64,000 nucleotides of DNA from Candidatus Woesearchaeota archaeon (GTDB taxonomy: Archaea; Nanobdellota; Nanobdellia; Woesearchaeales; WJIZ01): assembly GCA_014729995.1 (NCBI GenBank), contig WJIZ01000029.1:12779-76778 (forward strand), in the 5' to 3' direction. The notes beneath the pieces were generated by a model, which saw only the letters and a program-made list of their open reading frames with translations, was not told the origin of the DNA and did not search any database. Below are positions 11,557-64,000 of this stretch, piece by piece (the first letter of the stretch is position 1; each line of letters starts with the position of its first letter). Position numbers and translations under genes: made by a program.

Positions 11557-11639
11557 TTTTTCTTTTGAAATTATAATCTTATTATTTCCTCAAATCAAAA
11601 CCTATTTAAACAATCTGCATAATTTAAGCTTAAGCCAAG

Positions 11640-11746
11640 GAAAGTATCGTGAAATTCGGTCGCTGGCCCGCAGCCGTTAAAGCCGGAATACTTGCATATT
11701 ACAAGGGTCGAGGATTGTCCGCAGGATTTCTGCGAACATTTTTAAC
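11640..11746 (+). promoter_or_regulatory. Candidate cobalamin (B12) riboswitch-like leader. It resembles the compact AdoCbl-variant class.
   Basis: AGGAAAGUAUCGUGAAAUUCGGUC resembles the conserved GGGAAAG..CGUGAAAUUCG core of Cbl riboswitches. It is followed by GGCCCGCAGCCG, a degenerate B12 box (consensus CCCGCCACUG). A terminal hairpin CGCAG-GAUUU-CUGCG sits 12 nt before the ATG. The context is an ECF S-component plus DUF4430. Confidence 0.4.
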
Positions 11747-12505
11747 ATGTCTAAAAAGCAAAAGCTTAAGCTAAAAAAGAAGAAGAAAGAACAGAAAGAA
11801 AAGCAGAAGCTCTCAACCGAGCAGAGATTAGCAATAAAAGCTGTGCAAAAGCAGCTTCAATTATTGAAACTAAGGGAGCTTTTATTATTGATAGGCTTCA
11901 CAACAGGCGGAGCATTGTTAAGAATTCCGATGCAAGCTATCCCAAGTGCAGAGCCATTAACATTCTTCGCAATACTATCAGGCTGGCTTTTTGGTAGGAA
12001 AAAGGGAGCAGCTGTAGGAGCTTCTTCATTATATATCTCAAATTTCTTCATGTTCGGCGGACAAGGTCCCTGGAGCATTTTGCAGGCAATAGGCTTTGGC
12101 ATAGCGGGCTGGCTAGGGGGCTTGTTAAGAAAAAAAGCATCATACTTAGAAGTGATGATAATTACAATAATTGCTACATTGGTTTTTGAGGTAATTATGA
12201 ACGCTTTCACCCCACTTATGGTGGGCTCATCTATTTTCATGGCTTTTGCGCTTGCATTGCCTTTCACGCTGATACACCTTGCTTCCAACTTCATTTTCGC
12301 TTTAGTATTACCTTCAACAAAAAAATTTGTCGAAAAGACAGGAGGCTTCAATGAAAAGGATATTTGTGCTAGTATTCTTGATAAGTATAATATTAGCACT
12401 AAGCTTGATTGGATTAAGAAATTTAGAAGAAGACCGAAGCACGGGCAAGGCAACATTGATAATAAGGACGATAGGAAGCACAGCACAGGAACAGGTGGAG
12501 CTTGA
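11747..12505 (+). CDS. Membrane protein resembling an ECF-transporter S-component, with a Lys-rich N-terminal tail. The 3' end overlaps the next gene in another frame.
   Basis: Five to six TM helices (GFTTGGALLRIPMQAIP..., GFGIAGWLGGLL). No ecfA or ecfT in the window. Confidence 0.5.
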   Translation: MSKKQKLKLKKKKKEQKEKQKLSTEQRLAIKAVQKQLQLLKLRELLLLIGFTTGGALLRIPMQAIPSAEPLTFFAILSGWLFGRKKGAAVGASSLYISNFFMFGGQGPWSILQAIGFGIAGWLGGLLRKKASYLEVMIITIIATLVFEVIMNAFTPLMVGSSIFMAFALALPFTLIHLASNFIFALVLPSTKKFVEKTGGFNEKDICASILDKYNISTKLDWIKKFRRRPKHGQGNIDNKDDRKHSTGTGGA

Positions 12506-14135: not shown

Positions 14136-15122
14136 ATGAGGGTGGTTTTTGCATTAATGTTCTTAGTTCTTTCCAGTTTTTGCTGTGCCCAGAATTTGGA
14201 TATAAGCGTTTATGAGGAGACAGGCCAGGGAAGAAGATTCGGCAATATCAATGCAGAGCCTGGCCAGACAGTGGAATTCTTCATCCATGCGGAGAACCGC
14301 AACCAGGACAGGAGCGACGATTCACAGGACATAGAGGACATCGAGATAAAAGCCACTATAGAAGAAATTGATGAAGGCGAGGATATCGAAGAGGAATATG
14401 ATGATTTTGACCTCAATGCCAAACAGGATGAAAGCCTCTCTTTCAGGCTGAAAATCCCTTTAAGGGTAAGGGATGCCCTTTATGACATTAATATCGAGTA
14501 CGAGTATGAGGAAGATGGCAAAAAATTCTCAGGCAGCACAGATTATTTTCTGGATGTGGACAAGGAAAAGCAAAATCTTTATCTTAAAAAACTCGGATTC
14601 CGGCCGGCAAGCATAAAATGCAATGAAATTTCATACCTTGAGATAGGGCTCATGAACCTTGGCACTTCAGACGCGGGCATTGTAATAACAGCCAGCAATG
14701 ACGAGCTTGATTTCACCCTCAGAAGGGCATCCTTTCTTGAAGCTTACCCTGGGGATGATATATACGAAAACAGGTTCGCCATTAAAGTCCCAAAGCAGGC
14801 CGAAAGCAAGCCCTACAAATTTGAAATCACAGTTAACGACAATAATGGTAATCTTCTGAAAAGGGAAACAGCCGAGCTTGATGTTAGCTGCCTTTCCGAA
14901 AAAACCGAATCTTCAGGGCAGCAGCAACAGCAGCAGAAGCAACAGCAGCCAGAGGAAAAAGAAGAGGATATAATCCCATCAGAACAGCCTAAGCTACAGC
15001 AGCGAGAGGAAATAATAGTGGAAAGCAGCAGCAGCTTTCCGGTTTATTTAATCATCCTGTTTGTCTTAATAGCCATTGCAGCAGTATTGTTGATAATATT
15101 GCTAAATAAAAAGAAACCATAG
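14136..15122 (+). CDS. Paralogous surface protein: signal peptide, acidic repeat module, poly-Gln linker and C-terminal TM anchor.
   Basis: MRVVFALMFLVLSSFCCAQN. IEEIDEGEDIEEEYDDFDLNAKQDESLSFRLKIP parallels a module in the previous gene. QQQQQQKQQQPEEKEE. C-terminal FPVYLIILFVLIAIAAVLLIILL. Confidence 0.6.
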   Translation: MRVVFALMFLVLSSFCCAQNLDISVYEETGQGRRFGNINAEPGQTVEFFIHAENRNQDRSDDSQDIEDIEIKATIEEIDEGEDIEEEYDDFDLNAKQDESLSFRLKIPLRVRDALYDINIEYEYEEDGKKFSGSTDYFLDVDKEKQNLYLKKLGFRPASIKCNEISYLEIGLMNLGTSDAGIVITASNDELDFTLRRASFLEAYPGDDIYENRFAIKVPKQAESKPYKFEITVNDNNGNLLKRETAELDVSCLSEKTESSGQQQQQQKQQQPEEKEEDIIPSEQPKLQQREEIIVESSSSFPVYLIILFVLIAIAAVLLIILLNKKKP

Positions 15123-15149
15123 TAATCATCCGAAACTGCATCACCCAAG

Positions 15150-15270
15150 CTGAAGTATGAAGGTGCAATTTCTTTAACAGCTGATTTCTGGTACAATAAG
15201 AAATGCATAGGCATTTCTTGTGTGCCAGAAAATCTTTGATTTTCTGAGCATGCCAAAAAAGCAGAAGCAT
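15150..15270. repeat. Copy A of a ~120-bp non-coding interspersed repeat. It contains two 9-bp hairpins, AAGAAAUGC-AUAG-GCAUUUCUU and CAGAAAAUC-UUU-GAUUUUCUG.
   Basis: About 94% identical to 55515-55635 in the same orientation. Both copies are intergenic. Confidence 0.7.
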
Positions 15271-15358
15271 CAGGTTATGGATTTTTGTTTCTTGCACTCT
15301 CTTACAGCCTGTTTATGCACAAAGCTCAAAGACCTTTCTGCCTAAGCTAATATAATAT

Positions 15359-15372
15359 CTACTTTAAAGTAG
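15359..15372. promoter_or_regulatory. Perfect 14-bp palindrome CTACTTTAAAGTAG just upstream of the TATA-like box of the TrmB-family gene. Candidate operator.
   Basis: Read directly from the sequence. It has TACT-N4-AGTA geometry, similar to the TACT..AGTA TrmB site. TTTATAAA lies at 15388-15395 and the ATG at 15421. Confidence 0.4.
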
Positions 15373-15420
15373 TTACAAATAGAAAAATTTATAAAGCGCG
15401 ATTTATTTTTCTTTATATAT

Positions 15421-23536: not shown

Positions 23537-24662
23537 ATTCTCTTATTATCTCTTTTATTAAAAATCTGCTGAGGTTGAACCTTCTCGCTCTTGGAAATCC
23601 GGGAAATGTATTGATCTCTATAAACATAGCGCTTTTCCTGTCTGCGCAAAGCATCATATCTACCCCCCCAAAGCCCAGCCCAAGCGATTTGATTGCCTTA
23701 ACCGCAGCTTTCTTAGCCGCTTCCAGCTGCCTTTTCGGAAGCAGCCTTATGAAGCTTGTCTTTTCGCCTTTTGCGCCCTGCGAAATATTGGTTGTCACAG
23801 CCTCTGCATCATTGCTCCTGCCATAGCTGTACAAGACACTATCCCTGAAAACATACATTCTCAGGTCAAATTTTCTCCCCCTGATAAGCAGCGGATTGAT
23901 TGCTTCCTCTATTATTATGTCTTTCCTGAGAAGCCGGCTGAGAAATTTTTTATTTGCGGTAATATCTATAAAAGACCAGCCGTAATCAGAATGCTTGTTC
24001 ACTATCCTGCCGTTCCTAAACCTGAAATTGGTCATCCACCTTCCTTTTTCCAGGTATGTTATGCCCTTGCCCATGCTTCCAAACCTCACTTTTATGAAAA
24101 GCTTGTATCCTTTGTCTAGGAGCCCTATTACGCCCCCAACTTTATTATTGTGGAATCTTTTCGGCACAAGAATTCCCGATCTGGAAACTATCTCTTTTGT
24201 CAGTTCCTTATCCCTGTCAGTGGCTAAGCTTTCAGGGGGATTTATATAAGAGATTTTCTTGTCTTTGTAGAAAGAATCCAGGGATTTTTTTACATCCTTC
24301 CAGAATGACCTGAATTTCTCATAAAATGCCTTATTGCCGTATATGCCCTTATATTGCTTAGGCTCTATATGCTTATCCCAGTATTCAAATGGAAAGAAAA
24401 GAAAGACTATCAACTCTTGGGTGTTTAATTTAGGCAAATCTCCCCCAAGCAATTTCCAATAATCGGTTTTCTTTAACGAAATTCCAGAATTATAAAAAAA
24501 TCTCCTGCTCTTGCAGAATTTCCTGAATGTGTCAAAGTCTTTCCAGTCCCCGACCGCAAGCAAAGTTTTTGTTTCCACCATTTTCTTTATCAGGGAATTC
24601 CTTATAAAAGTTTGGTTTAAAATGGGGTTTTCATAATCTTTATAAAGCTCTCTTAAAAACAT
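23526..24662 (-). CDS. ATP-grasp ligase, RimK/YheC-YheD-like. It overlaps the GNAT gene by 11 nt.
   Basis: KVRFGSMGKGI, FDLRMYVF and EINTFPGF ATP-grasp motifs. The ATG at 24662 is preferred, because the track start 24875 would overlap rnfC. Confidence 0.6.
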   Translation of the reverse strand: MFLRELYKDYENPILNQTFIRNSLIKKMVETKTLLAVGDWKDFDTFRKFCKSRRFFYNSGISLKKTDYWKLLGGDLPKLNTQELIVFLFFPFEYWDKHIEPKQYKGIYGNKAFYEKFRSFWKDVKKSLDSFYKDKKISYINPPESLATDRDKELTKEIVSRSGILVPKRFHNNKVGGVIGLLDKGYKLFIKVRFGSMGKGITYLEKGRWMTNFRFRNGRIVNKHSDYGWSFIDITANKKFLSRLLRKDIIIEEAINPLLIRGRKFDLRMYVFRDSVLYSYGRSNDAEAVTTNISQGAKGEKTSFIRLLPKRQLEAAKKAAVKAIKSLGLGFGGVDMMLCADRKSAMFIEINTFPGFPRARRFNLSRFLIKEIIREYGN

Positions 24663-24668
24663 AATTGT

Positions 24669-54747: not shown

Positions 54748-55506
54748 TTATCTTGCACTCTTCTGGTAGGAATTAATAGCATCCATCAGCTCGGATTTGT
54801 CAAAGTCAAGCCACGGCTTATTAGAGAAATAAATCGCCGAATTCAGCGAATCCCACAAAAGCAGGCCTGTCTTAAGTTTTTTTCTTCCGTTCACGATGAT
54901 TATTTCGGGCGGGATAAAATAAGATGAGTATGTGTTGCTCTTGATCATGTCTTTGTCTATTGTTTCGGGCCCTATTTTTTCTGTCTTGACTTTTCTTGCT
55001 ATAAGCCTGCACGCATCAACTATCTCATCCTGCCCGTTGTAATTTATGCAAAGATTGGCATAAAAGCCGTCATTGTCCTTTGTAGCTGCTATCAGCTCTT
55101 TAATGGGCTCGACAACCTTATGCGGGAGGTTATACCATTTGCCTAATACGCTTATTTTTATCTTTTCCCTTATTATGCTTTCCGCAGCCAAGCCGCGTAT
55201 GAATTTCGCAATCTCTTCCAGGTAATCTTCATCCCTGTTCCTGTCATCAAGCAGGTAAAAAGTGGTTATGGGTATATTAAGCTTCAGCTGGTGCTTTATT
55301 GCATCCAGTATCTTTAAAAGACCATTTTCATAGCTGTTCTCGCTCTTTCTTTTTTCATCTATCCCCCCTAAAGTGATTGCTATGTGTTTTGGTATTTTTA
55401 TCTTTATCTCATAGCTTTTCTCTTTCCCGAATCTCAGCTTGTCCAGCATTGTAAGTTGCCTATTGCTTAAATCATAGAAATCAGCAGAAATCGCATCACT
55501 CCACAT
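54748..55506 (-). CDS. cis-Prenyltransferase (undecaprenyl-diphosphate synthase family), with a divergent N-terminus.
   Basis: C-terminal LLWDSLNSAIYFSNKPWLDFDKSELMDAINSYQKSAR and NYNGQDEI match UppS motifs. Confidence 0.6.
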   Translation of the reverse strand: MWSDAISADFYDLSNRQLTMLDKLRFGKEKSYEIKIKIPKHIAITLGGIDEKRKSENSYENGLLKILDAIKHQLKLNIPITTFYLLDDRNRDEDYLEEIAKFIRGLAAESIIREKIKISVLGKWYNLPHKVVEPIKELIAATKDNDGFYANLCINYNGQDEIVDACRLIARKVKTEKIGPETIDKDMIKSNTYSSYFIPPEIIIVNGRKKLKTGLLLWDSLNSAIYFSNKPWLDFDKSELMDAINSYQKSAR

Positions 55507-55514
55507 TAAAATGT

Positions 55515-55635
55515 GGAGTATGAAGATGCAATTTCTTTAACAGGCTGATTTCTGGGACAATAAGAAATGCTTAGGCATTTCTTGTGTGCCAGAAAATCTT
55601 TGATTTCCTGAGCATGCCAAAAAAGCAAAAGCACT
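55515..55635. repeat. Copy B of the ~120-bp interspersed repeat. It abuts the uppS start, which sits in a CCACAT-TAAA-ATGTGG hairpin.
   Basis: About 94% identical to 15150-15270. Hairpin 1 is conserved. Hairpin 2 carries one disruptive substitution. Confidence 0.7.
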
Positions 55636-55776
55636 CATCCGACAACTAAACTTCAGGCTGTGCCCGAAGGCTTACAAATTTACAATTTGAGAGAGTTGTG
55701 GGTATTCTGCTTTTTTGAGTATAACACCTGTATTAATATGGCAATATTTATAAATATTCGCTAGTAATGCCATATA

Positions 55777-59559: not shown

Positions 59560-62500
59560 ATGGGGGGCAGAAAGTTAATTTTTTTATTATTGGTAATGGC
59601 TCTTGTTTCTAATGTTATCTCTGAAGACTCAAATATAACCAATCTCGGGCAAAATAGTGCTCTCGAGTCAACGAAATCAATTCAGTCGATTCCTTGTCCC
59701 ATAACAAATATTGCTCTATTGGTGAGTTCAGTAGCTTGTAATAATCAGAAAATAGATATAAAATTAATAGTTTATTATGATGTTCCACAGGATTTTGATG
59801 CAATAGTAGAATATGAGATATGGGAAGATGACATACGTTTAGATGATTTTATAGATTCATTTAAAACATGGGAGAGTTTCAAGGACGGAGGTACAGAAAT
59901 TTTTCATATTTTCAAAGACATTGATGTAAGTTCTTATGAAAATGGTGACCCAGAAATTTATGCCAATATTATAATAACAGACCCCTTTATTGGCATGGAA
60001 ATCTGTACTTATACTACTAATACAAAGAATATAGATGTGGAAAACTGTGATTGCTGGTCTGGTCTGTGTTGCGATACTGCAAATTTTCCTTATTCTTATT
60101 ATGAATCTAATGATTATCATATTTGTAGTGATCCCTCCGATATAGAATACAGGTGTGAAAGTTCCAATCCAGGAGACGATGTAGAATATCGCACACAGAA
60201 ACAATATTGTGGAGGAGGCACTGCACAGTGTAATGGCCCTACTTCTTGGAGGATATGGAAAACCTACCAAGATTGTACTATTCACGAATACTGCTCAAAC
60301 AACCAATGCGTAGATTGCGGATACCACACTAACTACCATTGTTTAGGAGACGATGTTTATTGGTATGATGATTGCAGTTACAGAGAAGATCTTAAGGAAG
60401 ATTGCGGTTCAGATGCATGTACTTCTTGGAGTCCATACTGTTATAATAATGATGCATGGAAAAAAAGAACATGTTATGATAGGTATTGCAGAGAAGGAGC
60501 TTCTTTAGGCAGCTGCCAGGAAGATTCTTCAATAGAAACTGCAAAAGTCAAAGACTGTGGCAATAACGAAGAGTGCATGGGGGGAGTTTGTAAGATAATA
60601 AGTTGTTATTCTGATGCAGATTGCGGAAATGATGGTTATATAGGCTCTAAGTATTGTTTGTACGGGGATGTACACCAAGATTATCGAACATATACTTGTT
60701 CAAATCCCGGCCATGGGGATTCATCCTGTTATCATTTTAATCAACCTTATGAAATTGAAGTGTGTACTTATGGCTGCCAAAACGGAGCATGTATTTATCC
60801 ATCCTGCAATTCAGATGCAGACTGCAATCCAGATGGCTGCTACAGCTATGAGCATAGAGATTATTACTGTTATCATCCAGGGCAGGTAGATTCAGCATGC
60901 AGGTATCTCTCAGACGGTACAGATAGAGATAATGATAATTATGACAGCGAATGTGGCGATTGTAATGACTTGAATCAGAATATAAATCCGGGCGCAAGTG
61001 AATTATGCAATGATTTAGATGATGATTGTAATGGAGCAACCGATGAGGGCTTTAATAATGAAAACTGTAGGTACATATGCCGGGCAAACGGGTATCATTG
61101 GTCCAATAACGGCGCTAACCTGAATTGCTGCGGAAATAACCCTAATGAAGCCTCACCTTATGAGGCTGCAGAATCAAGCTGCAGCGATAACCATGATAAT
61201 GACTGTGACGGCAAAACTGACATGCAGGATTCCGATTGTTTTGCCTGTAATGACGGAGATAAGAAGCCTTGCCCTATGCAGCAGGGAGTATGCCAGGGGT
61301 CTTATCAAACATGCACGAATAACATGTGGCCGGGCTGCACATTCCTTAATTACGGCCAGTATTATGAATCTACAGAAATCAGCTGCGATGCACGGGATAA
61401 TGACTGTGACGCCAATATAGATGAGTTCTGCCAATGTGTTGTTCCTTACGGAGGGATGCAGATTTTAAGTGATATTAAATTTTGTACTGGGAATTATAAG
61501 ATGGATGGCCCTATATTTATTAATAAAAGCAGCCTAAACATTGACTGCAGAGACACAAATTTAATAAGGAATTATACCCAGAGTCATAAGGCAACCGATA
61601 GCGGCATTTATCTTTACAAGCAGGATAATATCTTTATAGGAAACTGCAATCTTTATGATTATAGATGGCCCTTTCATGCCTATGATGCAGACAACATCAA
61701 GATAATAAACAACTCTTTCTATGGAAGCAGTAAAAAAAAGGGAGTATTTATAAAAGGAAACAATATCAGGGTGAAAAATAATTATTTTTCTTCGGGCTAC
61801 CCTTCCTTGGAATTTAGGGTCGTAGATTATTCATCAATAGAAGACAATAGCTTTGAAAATACTGGCTTGGCTGTTGCTTTTACTGTGGTGCATCATATTA
61901 ATCAATCTGGAAATATTATTACTAATGCCACCATGGGCATCATAATGTCATACACATACGACTTGACAGCCAGCCAAAATGTAATAACAAATTCCACCAG
62001 TGCCGTAATTGCACTTAATCCGTTATTTAATCTGAGATTTCTGAATAACACTATCAGCCAAAGTAACAATGCAATTTATCTGAATCCTAACCCATCAAAT
62101 GAACTGGAGTTTAAATATAACAATCTACATAATAATTCTGTTGGTGTTTTGTTTAAAAGGGGTAATAACCTATCTTTTAAGTATAATAATCTAAAAAATT
62201 ATATAAATTTTGAAAACAGAAAAAATAAGGAGATAAACCTAAGCCACAATTACTGGGGCTCAGGTGATGAATCTTCAATAGCGCAGAATATAATTGACAA
62301 AGATGACAATGCTTCGTATGGAAAGGCACATTTCAGGCCCTATTACTGCAAGCCATATCCAACAGCCGCAATTTCTCCATGCCCCTCATACCTGAATATA
62401 ACCTTATATCCCGGCTGGAACCTATTTTGCCTGCAAAACAAATCTAACTTAAGCTATTCAAGCCTATTCTCTTTTGATAACTCGAAGAAAGAATACATCT

Positions 62501-64000
62501 CTGAGCCCTTATTCGAAGCCAAAAAAGCCTATTGGCTTGAATCAAAAAGCAGCCAGGCATTGAAGATGAAAAAAACAGGAGGCGGCATTCTTGAATTTAA
62601 TTTAACACAAGGATGGAATCTTTTGCCGTATTTAGCAGGCCAAGAAATGGCTATTTCGGGCTCACTCGGTAATGTCCAGGGCCAATATAGGACAATTTTT
62701 AACTATAACGCATCTGCCCGGAATTGGGAAACATACACTAATGCCAGCCCATTCAATACATTCAGATCCTTTAGGCCTGGAAAAAGCTATTGGATTTACC
62801 TCCCCTACAACCAGACATGGCTCTTTAATTCGTCTTCCGGAATATTCACAAATCCTGATCCATTCATTCCAAAGTGCCAGCCCCGGGAAAGAAGAGACTG
62901 CGGGACAGATATGGGGGAATGCCGCTATGGAACACAGTCATGCATGAATGGAAAATGGGGCCCTTGCTTGAATCGAATAATGCCTGTAGCGGAAATATGT
63001 GACGGGCTGGACAACGACTGCGACGGAATTTCTGACAATAACCTTCACCCTCCCAGTGCGGATAAGCAGCAGGGCGTTTGTTCGGGAAGCAAAAAAGAAT
63101 GCAGCGGCATAAACGGATGGATAGAGCCTGATTATTCTAAAATCAGCAGCTATGAGCATTCTGAATCAAGCTGCGATGGCAGAGACAACGACTGCGACGC
63201 ACTGACAGACGAATCACTCTCTGCTCCGGCCTGCAGTAAGCAGGCAGGCATATGCTATGGAAGCAAAAAGACATGCGGCGGAAGTTCCGGCTGGATAGAC
63301 TGCACTGCAGCTGGCTATGGTACAGATTATCAGTCTGCTGAAACCAAATGCGACCAATTGGACAACGACTGCGACACTATAACAGACGAGAACTGCAATT
63401 GCTATAACGGAGAGACAAGGAATTGCGGCACTGATATTGGTGAATGCCGATATGGCACAGAAACATGCGACATAAACGGAAATTGGGGGAGTTGTATAGG
63501 CGCTAAAGGCCCTGCACCAGATGCCTGCCCTCATGATGGATTTGATAACAATTGCAATGGCGTGGTAGATGAAAAATACTGCAGTGATAATTATTGCTAT
63601 GACTGGAGTTATGCGCCCCCCGATCCTTATGGGGAATTTATCGATACGATTGATTATGGACCATACTGCGCCGATAAAAGACAATGGCGGATTAAGGATG
63701 TTGATAATGATGGATACACCGAGTATTATATGCTGAAAGGAGAAACTCTGAGAATATGGGGATATTGCATCGCAAATACTCTTATAGATCCTACAAGAAA
63801 GGTGGCAGCTTTCAGTGATTTTGCAGCAACACAGAACATAGAATGTTACGATGGGTATTGCGATAGCAGTAAAGAATATTTTTTATGGGAAGATCATCAA
63901 ACCGCCGCCAAAAACTCAATCAGTTTTCCAGGATATCTTTGCGAAGTATGTGATAACTATGGTAATTGTATGAGTTTTGGATGGAAAGCACATCATTTGT
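59560..64000 (+). CDS. Giant secreted protein, 3' partial (at least 1480 aa, no stop before the window end). It has a signal peptide, an N-terminal Cys-rich region, seven or more MopE-like C-D-G-x-D-N-D-C-D-x-x-x-D-E repeats, a central right-handed parallel beta-helix (PbH1/NosD-like) region and a second block of MopE-like repeats.
   Basis: Frame 1 was translated by hand from 59560 (MGGRKLIFLLLVMALVSNVIS/EDS) to 64000 with no stop codon. Alternative ATG at 59503. A TTATATATAA TATA-like box lies at 59491-59500. The supplied ORF track does not list this ORF because it has no stop codon. Confidence 0.8.
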   Translation, partial: MGGRKLIFLLLVMALVSNVISEDSNITNLGQNSALESTKSIQSIPCPITNIALLVSSVACNNQKIDIKLIVYYDVPQDFDAIVEYEIWEDDIRLDDFIDSFKTWESFKDGGTEIFHIFKDIDVSSYENGDPEIYANIIITDPFIGMEICTYTTNTKNIDVENCDCWSGLCCDTANFPYSYYESNDYHICSDPSDIEYRCESSNPGDDVEYRTQKQYCGGGTAQCNGPTSWRIWKTYQDCTIHEYCSNNQCVDCGYHTNYHCLGDDVYWYDDCSYREDLKEDCGSDACTSWSPYCYNNDAWKKRTCYDRYCREGASLGSCQEDSSIETAKVKDCGNNEECMGGVCKIISCYSDADCGNDGYIGSKYCLYGDVHQDYRTYTCSNPGHGDSSCYHFNQPYEIEVCTYGCQNGACIYPSCNSDADCNPDGCYSYEHRDYYCYHPGQVDSACRYLSDGTDRDNDNYDSECGDCNDLNQNINPGASELCNDLDDDCNGATDEGFNNENCRYICRANGYHWSNNGANLNCCGNNPNEASPYEAAESSCSDNHDNDCDGKTDMQDSDCFACNDGDKKPCPMQQGVCQGSYQTCTNNMWPGCTFLNYGQYYESTEISCDARDNDCDANIDEFCQCVVPYGGMQILSDIKFCTGNYKMDGPIFINKSSLNIDCRDTNLIRNYTQSHKATDSGIYLYKQDNIFIGNCNLYDYRWPFHAYDADNIKIINNSFYGSSKKKGVFIKGNNIRVKNNYFSSGYPSLEFRVVDYSSIEDNSFENTGLAVAFTVVHHINQSGNIITNATMGIIMSYTYDLTASQNVITNSTSAVIALNPLFNLRFLNNTISQSNNAIYLNPNPSNELEFKYNNLHNNSVGVLFKRGNNLSFKYNNLKNYINFENRKNKEINLSHNYWGSGDESSIAQNIIDKDDNASYGKAHFRPYYCKPYPTAAISPCPSYLNITLYPGWNLFCLQNKSNLSYSSLFSFDNSKKEYISEPLFEAKKAYWLESKSSQALKMKKTGGGILEFNLTQGWNLLPYLAGQEMAISGSLGNVQGQYRTIFNYNASARNWETYTNASPFNTFRSFRPGKSYWIYLPYNQTWLFNSSSGIFTNPDPFIPKCQPRERRDCGTDMGECRYGTQSCMNGKWGPCLNRIMPVAEICDGLDNDCDGISDNNLHPPSADKQQGVCSGSKKECSGINGWIEPDYSKISSYEHSESSCDGRDNDCDALTDESLSAPACSKQAGICYGSKKTCGGSSGWIDCTAAGYGTDYQSAETKCDQLDNDCDTITDENCNCYNGETRNCGTDIGECRYGTETCDINGNWGSCIGAKGPAPDACPHDGFDNNCNGVVDEKYCSDNYCYDWSYAPPDPYGEFIDTIDYGPYCADKRQWRIKDVDNDGYTEYYMLKGETLRIWGYCIANTLIDPTRKVAAFSDFAATQNIECYDGYCDSSKEYFLWEDHQTAAKNSISFPGYLCEVCDNYGNCMSFGWKAHHL

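What the first reader, a model, noticed from the sequence alone, without database searches (positions are those of the whole stretch)
15150..15270. A ~120-bp non-coding repeat present twice (15150-15270 and 55515-55635) with paired 9-bp hairpins
The two intergenic copies are ~94% identical over ~120 nt in the same orientation. Each contains AAGAAAUGC-(A/U)UAG-GCAUUUCUU, whose only change lies in the loop, and CAGAAAAUC-UUU-GAUUUUCUG. Copy A lies downstream of a surface-protein gene and upstream of trmB. Copy B lies between uppS and the prepilin-peptidase gene. It could be a small RNA gene family, a MITE or a regulatory module. It is not a CRISPR array, because there are only two dispersed copies with no spacers.
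Basis: seen in the sequence. Interest (0 to 1): 0.5.

Follow-up and report, generated by a model that had tools for sequence, protein, structure and literature searches.

The report
Two-copy hairpin-rich intergenic insertion repeat
A roughly 160-base non-coding, hairpin-rich sequence sits in two gene spacers of an uncultured Woesearchaeota archaeon that are only about 50 bases long in its relatives, so it is most likely a small mobile-type repeat, and a modest curiosity rather than a discovery.

Summary
The repeat is real. Copy A is 15114-15269 and copy B is 55469-55633, both on the + strand (blastn E = 2e-50). The core is 94.8% identical, the left flank about 76%, and similarity stops abruptly at the right edge.

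Its 3' arm overlaps the second hairpin, which has one mismatch in copy B. Copy B also keeps an ~80-nt left palindrome that has decayed in copy A.

The window comes from a Candidatus Woesearchaeota MAG (locus tags GF323_03650 and GF323_03865). In four and three related lineages the same two spacers are 46-66 nt and 51-53 nt. Here they are 298 and 327 nt, so both copies lie inside lineage-specific insertions.

The 40 kb between the copies is housekeeping DNA, so they are not att sites. I found:
- no Rfam family and no tRNA
- no conserved ORF and no protein match in any frame
- no transposase in the window
- no third copy
- no relative in the genome, metagenome, viral, phage or plasmid collections

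Best reading: a palindrome-rich dispersed repeat of the MITE/BIME/ERIC kind. Its terminal repeats and target duplications are unproven. A pair of paralogous small-RNA genes is the main rival. Interest is low to moderate.

The parts
15114..15269 (+). Repeat copy A (156 nt). It begins at the last codons and stop codon of the surface-protein gene and ends 152 nt before the TrmB-family gene.
   Evidence: blastn 15114-15269 vs 55469-55633, E = 2e-50. Alignments. Covariance-model score 195.6 bits.
55469..55633 (+). Repeat copy B (165 nt), between the divergent uppS gene (true start 55449, - strand) and the peptidase A24 gene (55777, + strand).
   Evidence: 212.6 bits. The UppS start is fixed by homologues that begin MLEKLRF.
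15183..15234 (+). Long hairpin H2 of copy A: 23-24 bp, loop AUAG, two G.U pairs and one bulge.
   Evidence: Fold -28.6 kcal/mol, z = -9.3 on the + strand, against -20.4 kcal/mol and z = -5.8 on the - strand.
55547..55598 (+). Long hairpin H2 of copy B (loop UUAG). The U-to-G change at 55556 opens one pair.
   Evidence: Fold -27.2 kcal/mol, z = -7.4. List of differences.
15226..15246 (+). Hairpin H3 of copy A (CAGAAAAUC-UUU-GAUUUUCUG). Its 5' arm overlaps the 3' arm of H2.
   Evidence: Read directly from the sequence. Coordinates derived from the fold.
55590..55610 (+). Hairpin H3 of copy B (CAGAAAAUC-UUU-GAUUUCCUG), with one A.C mismatch.
   Evidence: Sequence. The difference lies at 15243/55607.
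55475..55554 (.). Left palindrome H1 of copy B. It has three nested arm pairs: AGAAATCAGC/GCTGATTTCT, AGAAATCGCATC/GATGCAATTTCT and ACTCCACATT/AATGTGGAGT. In copy A (15120-15190) it has decayed through an 8-nt deletion and substitutions.
   Evidence: Self-inverted blastn hit 55476-55553. Whole-element fold is -61.1 kcal/mol for B against -41.6 for A.
15270..15350 (.). Extra spacer sequence to the right of copy A. It is absent from relatives and unrelated to its counterpart beside copy B. It contains a T5 run at 15282-15286.
   Evidence: Spacer comparison. No similarity to 55634-55742. T runs. No significant fold.
55634..55738 (.). Extra spacer sequence to the right of copy B, absent from relatives. 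It contains a GC-rich hairpin at 55651-55669 and a T6 run at 55711-55716.
15388..15395 (.). Palindromic TATA box TTTATAAA of the TrmB-family gene, conserved in relatives, 118 nt to the right of copy A.
55747..55754 (.). Palindromic TATA box TTTATAAA. In relatives it is shared by uppS and the peptidase gene. Here it lies 113 nt to the right of copy B and is cut off from uppS by the insertion.

Best explanation
The two copies belong to a lineage-specific, non-coding, palindrome-rich dispersed repeat. This is the same kind of object as bacterial MITE, BIME or ERIC elements and archaeal MITEs.

How it got there (shown and inferred): the repeat was copied into the few dispensable bases of two otherwise very compact promoter spacers. 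That it lies within insertions is shown. How it was copied, by transposition or by recombination, is inferred.

What the DNA looks like (shown): it is a mosaic of inverted copies of CAGAAA(A)TC. Either strand can therefore fold into a 23-24-bp central hairpin flanked by competing hairpins.

What it may do (inferred):
- The 115-nt core is kept much more alike than the left flank, which points to selection on the core or to recent gene conversion.
- Copy A would be transcribed as the 3' UTR of the surface-protein mRNA and ends 13 nt before a T5 run.
- On the opposite strand both copies carry a T6 run, 122-127 nt from a palindromic TATA box.
- The most likely effect is therefore transcript-end formation, stabilisation or insulation between neighbouring transcription units, not a trans-acting function.
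For: Evidence that both copies lie in insertions:
- The surface-protein/TrmB spacer is 46, 63, 66 and 63 nt in four related lineages and 298 nt here.
- The uppS/peptidase spacer is 51, 52 and 53 nt in three lineages and 327 nt here.
- The conserved promoter blocks are intact on the far side of the extra DNA in both cases.

Evidence from the pattern of similarity:
- The core is 94.8% identical.
- Similarity stops abruptly at the right edge: 0 of 6 matches just beyond it.
- The rest of the extra DNA is unrelated between the two sites.
- The core is more conserved than the left flank: 5 substitutions in 115 aligned positions against 10 in 41, Fisher p = 6.5e-4.

Evidence that it is non-coding:
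- Stop codons and frameshifts differ between the copies.
- No protein among 5.8 billion clusters matches any frame at E <= 10.

Evidence on structure:
- The hairpins are strong.
- The whole element folds about equally well on both strands, as DNA palindromes do: B gives -61.1 and -66.3 kcal/mol, A gives -41.6 and -42.3.

Evidence against an independent RNA gene:
- No TTTATAAA-like box with two or fewer mismatches lies at a shared position in or at the repeat.
- No Rfam family matches.
Against: Only two copies are known.

No terminal inverted repeats lie at the limits of homology. The inverted repeats are internal.

Target-site duplications are ambiguous. There is a possible TAAT at A, and an imperfect TATTGC/TATGGC at B. 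Both depend on including the unrelated right-hand DNA in the insert.

No transposase or integrase occurs anywhere in the 64 kb.

No related sequence exists in any searchable collection, so mobility is not demonstrated.

The unrelated 80-105 nt beside each copy is unexplained.

The central hairpin is 7-8 kcal/mol more stable on the + strand because of G.U pairs. That hints at an RNA-level role.

The nearest relatives are only 57-64% identical in protein, so the insertions could be old.
Confidence: 0.45

Rival explanations
1. The two copies are paralogous genes for a structured small RNA of about 150 nt on the + strand. The RNA has a closing stem, two hairpins and a competing third hairpin, and acts in trans or as a switch.
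For: The central hairpin is markedly more stable on the + strand: -28.6 against -20.4 kcal/mol, because of two G.U pairs.

RNAalifold gives a closed multi-branch consensus of 44 pairs. One U-G/U-A change keeps its pair.

Folding copy A alone, the differences from copy B fall preferentially at weakly paired positions (p = 0.03).

The core is more conserved than the flank.

A T5 run follows copy A by 13 nt.
Against: No TATA-like box lies at a shared position upstream.

In copy B the first + strand T run is 77 nt beyond the repeat.

The same substitution test fails when copy B is the folded copy (p = 0.40). For copy A it gives an equally low or lower value on the - strand (p = 0.008), so it shows no strand specificity.

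The element is absent from the syntenic sites of all relatives examined. A covariance model does not find it in their loci.

No Rfam match.

Covariation cannot be assessed with only two sequences.
Confidence: 0.25
2. The repeat is a cis-regulatory DNA module: a cluster of binding sites (CAGAAA(A)TC in alternating orientation) for one DNA-binding protein that co-regulates the flanking genes.
For: The 8-9-nt motif recurs four or five times in alternating orientation inside each copy.

Both copies lie at a similar distance, 113-118 nt, upstream of a TATA box in the same orientation relative to the downstream + strand gene.

The core is conserved.
Against: CAGAAATCAG, allowing up to one mismatch, is not enriched in the window as a whole: 10 matches against 8.2 expected.

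The flanking genes (TrmB regulator, surface protein, UppS, prepilin peptidase) have no evident common regulation.

Relatives manage the same genes with 50-nt spacers that lack any such module.

Archaeal operators normally overlap or adjoin the TATA box or start site. They are not usually more than 100 nt away. This point rests on established knowledge and was not tested here.
Confidence: 0.12
3. The copies are the attL and attR ends of an integrated 40-kb element, or relics of a segmental duplication or gene fragment.
For: The repeats are direct and lie 40,364 nt apart. The right end of the repeat reads ATGCCAAAAAAGCARAAGCA, which resembles the start of a lysine-rich gene such as the one at 11747.
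Against: The interval encodes housekeeping genes: Rnf complex, DnaK/DnaJ/GrpE, NAD synthase, lipoyl synthase and diphthamide synthase. Synteny with relatives runs across both repeats, and there is no integrase.

Homology does not extend beyond about 160 nt.

No frame matches any protein. The open reading frames differ between the copies.
Confidence: 0.03

Closest known systems
ERIC/IRU and related enterobacterial small mobile sequences (RU-1 127 bp, RU-2 168 bp; PMC2759123, listed)
   Same: Size of 100-170 nt. Non-coding. Dominated by long imperfect palindromes. Found in intergenic spacers, next to or within transcription units. Presence or absence varies between related genomes. No transposase of its own.
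   Different: No sequence similarity. Archaeal rather than enterobacterial host. Only two copies seen. The element is a mosaic of several hairpins rather than one whole-length palindrome.
MITEs (bacterial Correia/NEMIS, RUP; archaeal Sulfolobus SM elements). This comparison is from my own knowledge.
   Same: A short non-autonomous insertion in intergenic DNA, with empty sites in relatives, strong secondary structure and possible effects on neighbouring transcription.
   Different: Terminal inverted repeats and clear target-site duplications were not found. No partner insertion sequence is known. The copy number is unknown.
REP/BIME elements (PMC3733652, listed)
   Same: A mosaic of short palindromic units in alternating orientation in extragenic DNA. 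Proposed roles in transcript-end stabilisation and termination.
   Different: No GTAG or CGTC tag. AT-rich rather than GC-rich. Much longer stems. No RAYT transposase in the window. REPs are high-copy elements.
IS200/IS605-derived palindrome-associated elements (PATEs; cyanobacterial Nezha). This comparison is from my own knowledge.
   Same: Lacks terminal inverted repeats and clear target duplications. Carries subterminal hairpins. This family is common in archaea.
   Different: The two left flanks share no conserved target tetranucleotide. The right ends of the two inserts are unrelated. No tnpA or tnpB is nearby.

Membership tests
MITE | Terminal inverted repeats at the element ends | tested here: not met
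   The ends of homology (AAAYCATAGWAATCA ... AAAAAAGCARAAGCA) are not inverted copies of each other. The inverted repeats are internal. For the whole inserts, only TTAA...TTAA is found, at B.
MITE | Target-site duplication flanking the insert | tested here: inconclusive
   Compared with the empty sites of relatives, TAAT flanks a 219-nt insert at A and the imperfect pair TATTGC/TATGGC flanks the insert at B. Neither flanks the shared 160 nt alone.
MITE | Empty sites in related genomes (insertion polymorphism) | tested here: met
   Spacers are 46-66 nt and 51-53 nt in seven related loci, against 298 and 327 nt here. The relatives are distant, at 57-64% protein identity.
MITE | Multiple copies per genome and an autonomous partner sharing the ends | not testable with these tools
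   Only 64 kb of the MAG can be read. It holds two copies and no transposase. The MAG is not in the DNA collections.
REP/BIME | GC-rich palindromes of 20-40 nt with a GTAG or CGTC tag, in high copy number, with a RAYT gene | tested here: not met
   The stems are AT-rich and 9-24 bp long. There is no GTAG tag at the hairpin feet. No Y1 transposase domain occurs in the window.
Independent archaeal small-RNA gene | Own promoter (TATA box about 25 nt before the start site) and an oligo-T terminator at equivalent positions in both copies | tested here: not met
   No TTTATAAA-like box with two or fewer mismatches lies at a shared position. The + strand T runs lie 13 nt (A) and 77 nt (B) beyond the repeat. 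This was a consensus scan only, so a weak promoter is not excluded.
Independent archaeal small-RNA gene | Structure supported by covariation | not testable with these tools
   There are only two sequences. No pair shows changes on both sides. Single-sequence tests conflict with each other.
Independent archaeal small-RNA gene | Transcription as a discrete RNA | not testable with these tools
   No expression data are available.
Any Rfam family, or tRNA | Covariance-model score at or near the family threshold | tested here: not met
   No match at gathering scores. The best sub-threshold hits are microRNA models at 14-18 bits, E > 1. ARAGORN finds nothing.
CRISPR array | Short repeats regularly interspaced by spacers | tested here: not met
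   Two copies lie 40 kb apart and there is no array.
att sites of an integrated element | Direct repeats bounding mobile-element genes, including an integrase | tested here: not met
   The interval holds housekeeping genes that are syntenic with relatives.

The most novel reading that the evidence does not exclude
The 115-nt core is kept by selection and represents an undescribed structured element of DPANN archaea. It would be either a domesticated mobile palindrome that acts as a two-way transcription insulator or terminator between tightly packed genes, or a new switch-like RNA with three mutually exclusive hairpins. It has no counterpart in Rfam or among described archaeal repeats.
Probability: 0.15. 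Interest if true: 0.5.

Novelty: new member of a known kind. Interest (0 to 1): 0.3.

Why it matters
DPANN archaea such as Woesearchaeota have small, tightly packed genomes, and almost nothing is known about their repeats, mobile elements or non-coding RNAs.

A palindromic element that can sit between a gene end and a promoter only about 50 nt away would matter in two ways. It would show that these reduced genomes still carry mobile or duplicating DNA. It could also mark a simple way of separating neighbouring transcription units; for example, it has cut uppS off from the TATA box it shares with its neighbour in relatives.

With only two copies and no expression data, the present value is mainly as a lead for whoever holds the full MAG and its metatranscriptome.

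Tried and rejected
- **att sites of a 40-kb island.** Rejected. The interval holds housekeeping genes, is syntenic with relatives and has no integrase.
- **Known RNA families and tRNA.** None found.
- **C/D-box, H/ACA and bulge-helix-bulge motifs.** I inspected the sequence by eye only. The box spacing does not fit, and there is no pseudouridylation pocket and no 3-nt bulges.
- **Origin-recognition boxes.** The motif does not match what I recall of the ORB consensus (from memory, not tested). No orc1/cdc6 gene is nearby.
- **Coding sequence or gene fragment.** The frames are not conserved. A concatenated six-frame query found nothing among 5.8 billion protein clusters.
- **Homology between the right-hand extra sequences.** None on either strand.
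- **Further copies in the window.** None by blastn at word size 7 or by covariance model.
- **Copies elsewhere.**
  - An exact 24-mer gave no hits in the genome, metagenome and viral collections.
  - A gapped stem motif and a 20-mer gave only chance hits, in bacterial genomes and in two unidentified metagenome contigs, with no extended similarity.
  - Viral motif hits were chance.
  - Phage and plasmid blastn found nothing.
- **Fetching the rest of the MAG.** Its proteins are not in the gene-position index.
- **Enrichment of the CAGAAATC motif across the window.** Tested with CAGAAATCAG, allowing up to one mismatch. None found.

Full report
**Observation**

The two regions were read and aligned. 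A direct repeat is present.
- The repeat finder reports 15180-15269 vs 55544-55633 at 96% and 15151-15180 vs 55514-55543 at 93%, separated by a 1-nt indel.
- blastn at word size 7 extends the homology to 15114-15269 vs 55469-55633, with E = 2e-50. No other significant match exists in the 64 kb.
- The core (alignment columns 50-165) is 94.8% identical.
- The left 41 aligned positions are 75.6% identical and carry an 8-nt indel.
- The six positions beyond the right edge share nothing.
- The difference between core and flank is significant (Fisher p = 6.5e-4).

**Anatomy**

Its energy is -28.6 and -27.2 kcal/mol, and no shuffle out of 200 folds as well (z = -9.3 and -7.4).
- On the opposite strand this hairpin is 7-8 kcal/mol weaker, because two G.U pairs become A.C mismatches.
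- The second hairpin (15226-15246 and 55590-55610) uses the base of the long hairpin's 3' arm, so the two are mutually exclusive. It has one mismatch in copy B.
- Copy B also keeps an ~80-nt left palindrome (55475-55554) made of three nested arm pairs. Copy A has lost its tip. As a result the whole of B folds at -61 kcal/mol on the + strand and -66 on the - strand, whereas A folds at -42 on both strands.
- The unit CAGAAA(A)TC or its complement recurs four or five times in alternating orientation. CAGAAATCAG, allowing up to one mismatch, is not enriched in the window as a whole.
- With only two sequences there is no covariation. One change keeps a pair as U-G/U-A, and two open a pair.
- I tested whether the differences avoid paired positions. 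The results conflict: p = 0.03 when A is folded and 0.40 when B is folded. The same test gives p = 0.008 for A on the minus strand. I treat this as inconclusive.

**Non-coding**

Stop codons and frames differ between the copies. A query made of all six frames of both copies found no protein at E <= 10 among 5.8 billion clusters. No Rfam family reaches threshold, and the sub-threshold hits are chance microRNA models. No tRNA was found.

**Source and context**

The flanking proteins are identical to GF323_03650 and GF323_03865 of a Candidatus Woesearchaeota MAG, on a contig of 77,078 nt. The next best homologues are only 57-64% identical.

Pfam confirms the neighbouring genes:
- a TrmB-family regulator downstream of copy A
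- an undecaprenyl-diphosphate synthase on one side of copy B
- an archaeal A24 peptidase on the other side of copy B

The UppS start annotated at 55506 is probably too long. Homologues start MLEKLRF, which corresponds to 55449.

The 40 kb between the copies encodes Rnf subunits, DnaK/DnaJ/GrpE, NAD synthase, lipoyl synthase, diphthamide synthase and similar genes. There is no integrase or transposase. The copies are therefore not the ends of an integrated element.

**Comparison with relatives**

This is the most informative result. Gene order is conserved around both sites.

Site A:
- The spacer between the surface-protein gene and the TrmB gene is 46, 63, 66 and 63 nt in four lineages.
- It consists of a conserved block, TACTNNAAAGTAGTTACAAAAYAGAAAGATTTATAAA.
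- In the window the same block is present at 15360-15395, but the spacer is 298 nt.

Site B:
- The divergent uppS/peptidase spacer is 51-53 nt in three lineages, with a single palindromic TTTATAAA.
- In the window it is 327 nt. The TATA box remains next to the peptidase gene and is now about 290 nt from uppS.

Both copies therefore lie inside lineage-specific insertions of roughly 220-270 nt. Only the left 156-165 nt of each insertion is shared, and the right-hand 80-105 nt are unrelated on either strand.

Candidate target duplications exist: TAAT at A and the imperfect pair TATTGC/TATGGC at B. They flank the whole inserts rather than the shared part, and they are too short to be convincing.

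**Search for relatives**

- An exact 24-mer from the core gave no hit in the genome, metagenome or viral collections.
- A gapped stem motif and a 20-mer gave only chance hits with no extended similarity, in bacterial genomes and in two unidentified metagenome contigs.
- Viral motif hits were likewise chance.
- Phage and plasmid collections gave nothing.
- A covariance model built from the two copies finds only those two copies in the window, and nothing in eleven loci from relatives.
- The rest of the MAG could not be fetched.

**Promoters and terminators**

TTTATAAA lies 22-25 nt before the ATG of several genes in the window. From this I infer that leaderless mRNAs are the norm here.

No box with two or fewer mismatches lies at a shared position in or beside the repeat, which argues against an independent gene. 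On the + strand, a T5 run follows copy A by 13 nt, but in copy B the first T run is 77 nt away. On the - strand, both copies carry a T6 run near their right edge, 122-127 nt from the palindromic TATA boxes.

**Interpretation**

The evidence best fits a palindrome-rich dispersed repeat of the MITE/BIME/ERIC kind, present in two spacers that are otherwise minimal. The main points in favour are:
- insertion relative to relatives
- a sharp right boundary
- strand-symmetric palindromes
- no promoter, no coding capacity and no homologue in relatives

I infer that its effect, if any, is on transcript ends. Copy A would be the 3' UTR of the surface-protein mRNA. Both copies would stop divergent transcripts coming from the palindromic TATA boxes.

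The higher conservation of the core suggests selection or gene conversion. The stronger central hairpin on the + strand keeps an RNA-level role open. The main rival is a pair of paralogous small-RNA genes. A protein-binding module is less likely, and att sites or a gene fragment are essentially excluded.

Membership of the MITE family is not established. Terminal inverted repeats were not found, target duplications are ambiguous, and neither copy number nor an autonomous partner can be tested.

**Verdict**

This is a real and well-delimited feature of modest interest. It is probably a new example of a known kind of element in a poorly studied archaeal lineage.

Noticed in passing
window 11620-11701 (+): Full-length match to the AdoCbl-II cobalamin riboswitch aptamer (RF01689): 42.3 bits against a threshold of 36.5. 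It lies 45 nt upstream of a DUF6580 membrane-protein gene (11747-12505). As far as I recall, this class has been reported mainly from bacteria, so a copy in a Woesearchaeota genome deserves its own look.
   Followed up: partly
window 15360-15395; L001, L003, L042, L043 upstream of the TrmB gene: The palindrome TACTTTAAAGTA followed by GTTACAAA lies directly upstream of the TATA box of the TrmB-family regulator gene. It is conserved in four lineages that share only 53-62% protein identity. It is probably the regulator's own operator.
   Followed up: partly
window 55449-55506 (-): The deposited UppS protein (GF323_03865, 252 aa) starts at 55506, inside repeat copy B. Homologues of 229-237 aa start MLEKLRF, which corresponds to 55449. 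The annotated start is therefore probably 19 codons too early.
   Followed up: yes
window 15388, 24639, 52454, 55747: TTTATAAA lies 22-25 nt before start codons, which implies mostly leaderless mRNAs. The box is a palindrome, and relatives use a single box for the divergent uppS and peptidase genes.
   Followed up: partly
window 15269-15388 and 55633-55747: The two repeats end at nearly the same distance (118 and 113 nt) from the next TATA box, although the sequence in between is unrelated. This may be coincidence or a spacing constraint.
   Followed up: no
window 23537-24668 and 61421-62671: There are two stretches of over 1.1 kb without an ATG-initiated ORF of 70 aa or more, in an otherwise tightly packed window. 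I did not examine them.
   Followed up: no
L044 1610-1802: In one relative, the spacer after uppS is 193 nt, against 42 nt in L006. This looks like another lineage-specific intergenic expansion. It is not similar to the repeat studied here.
   Followed up: no
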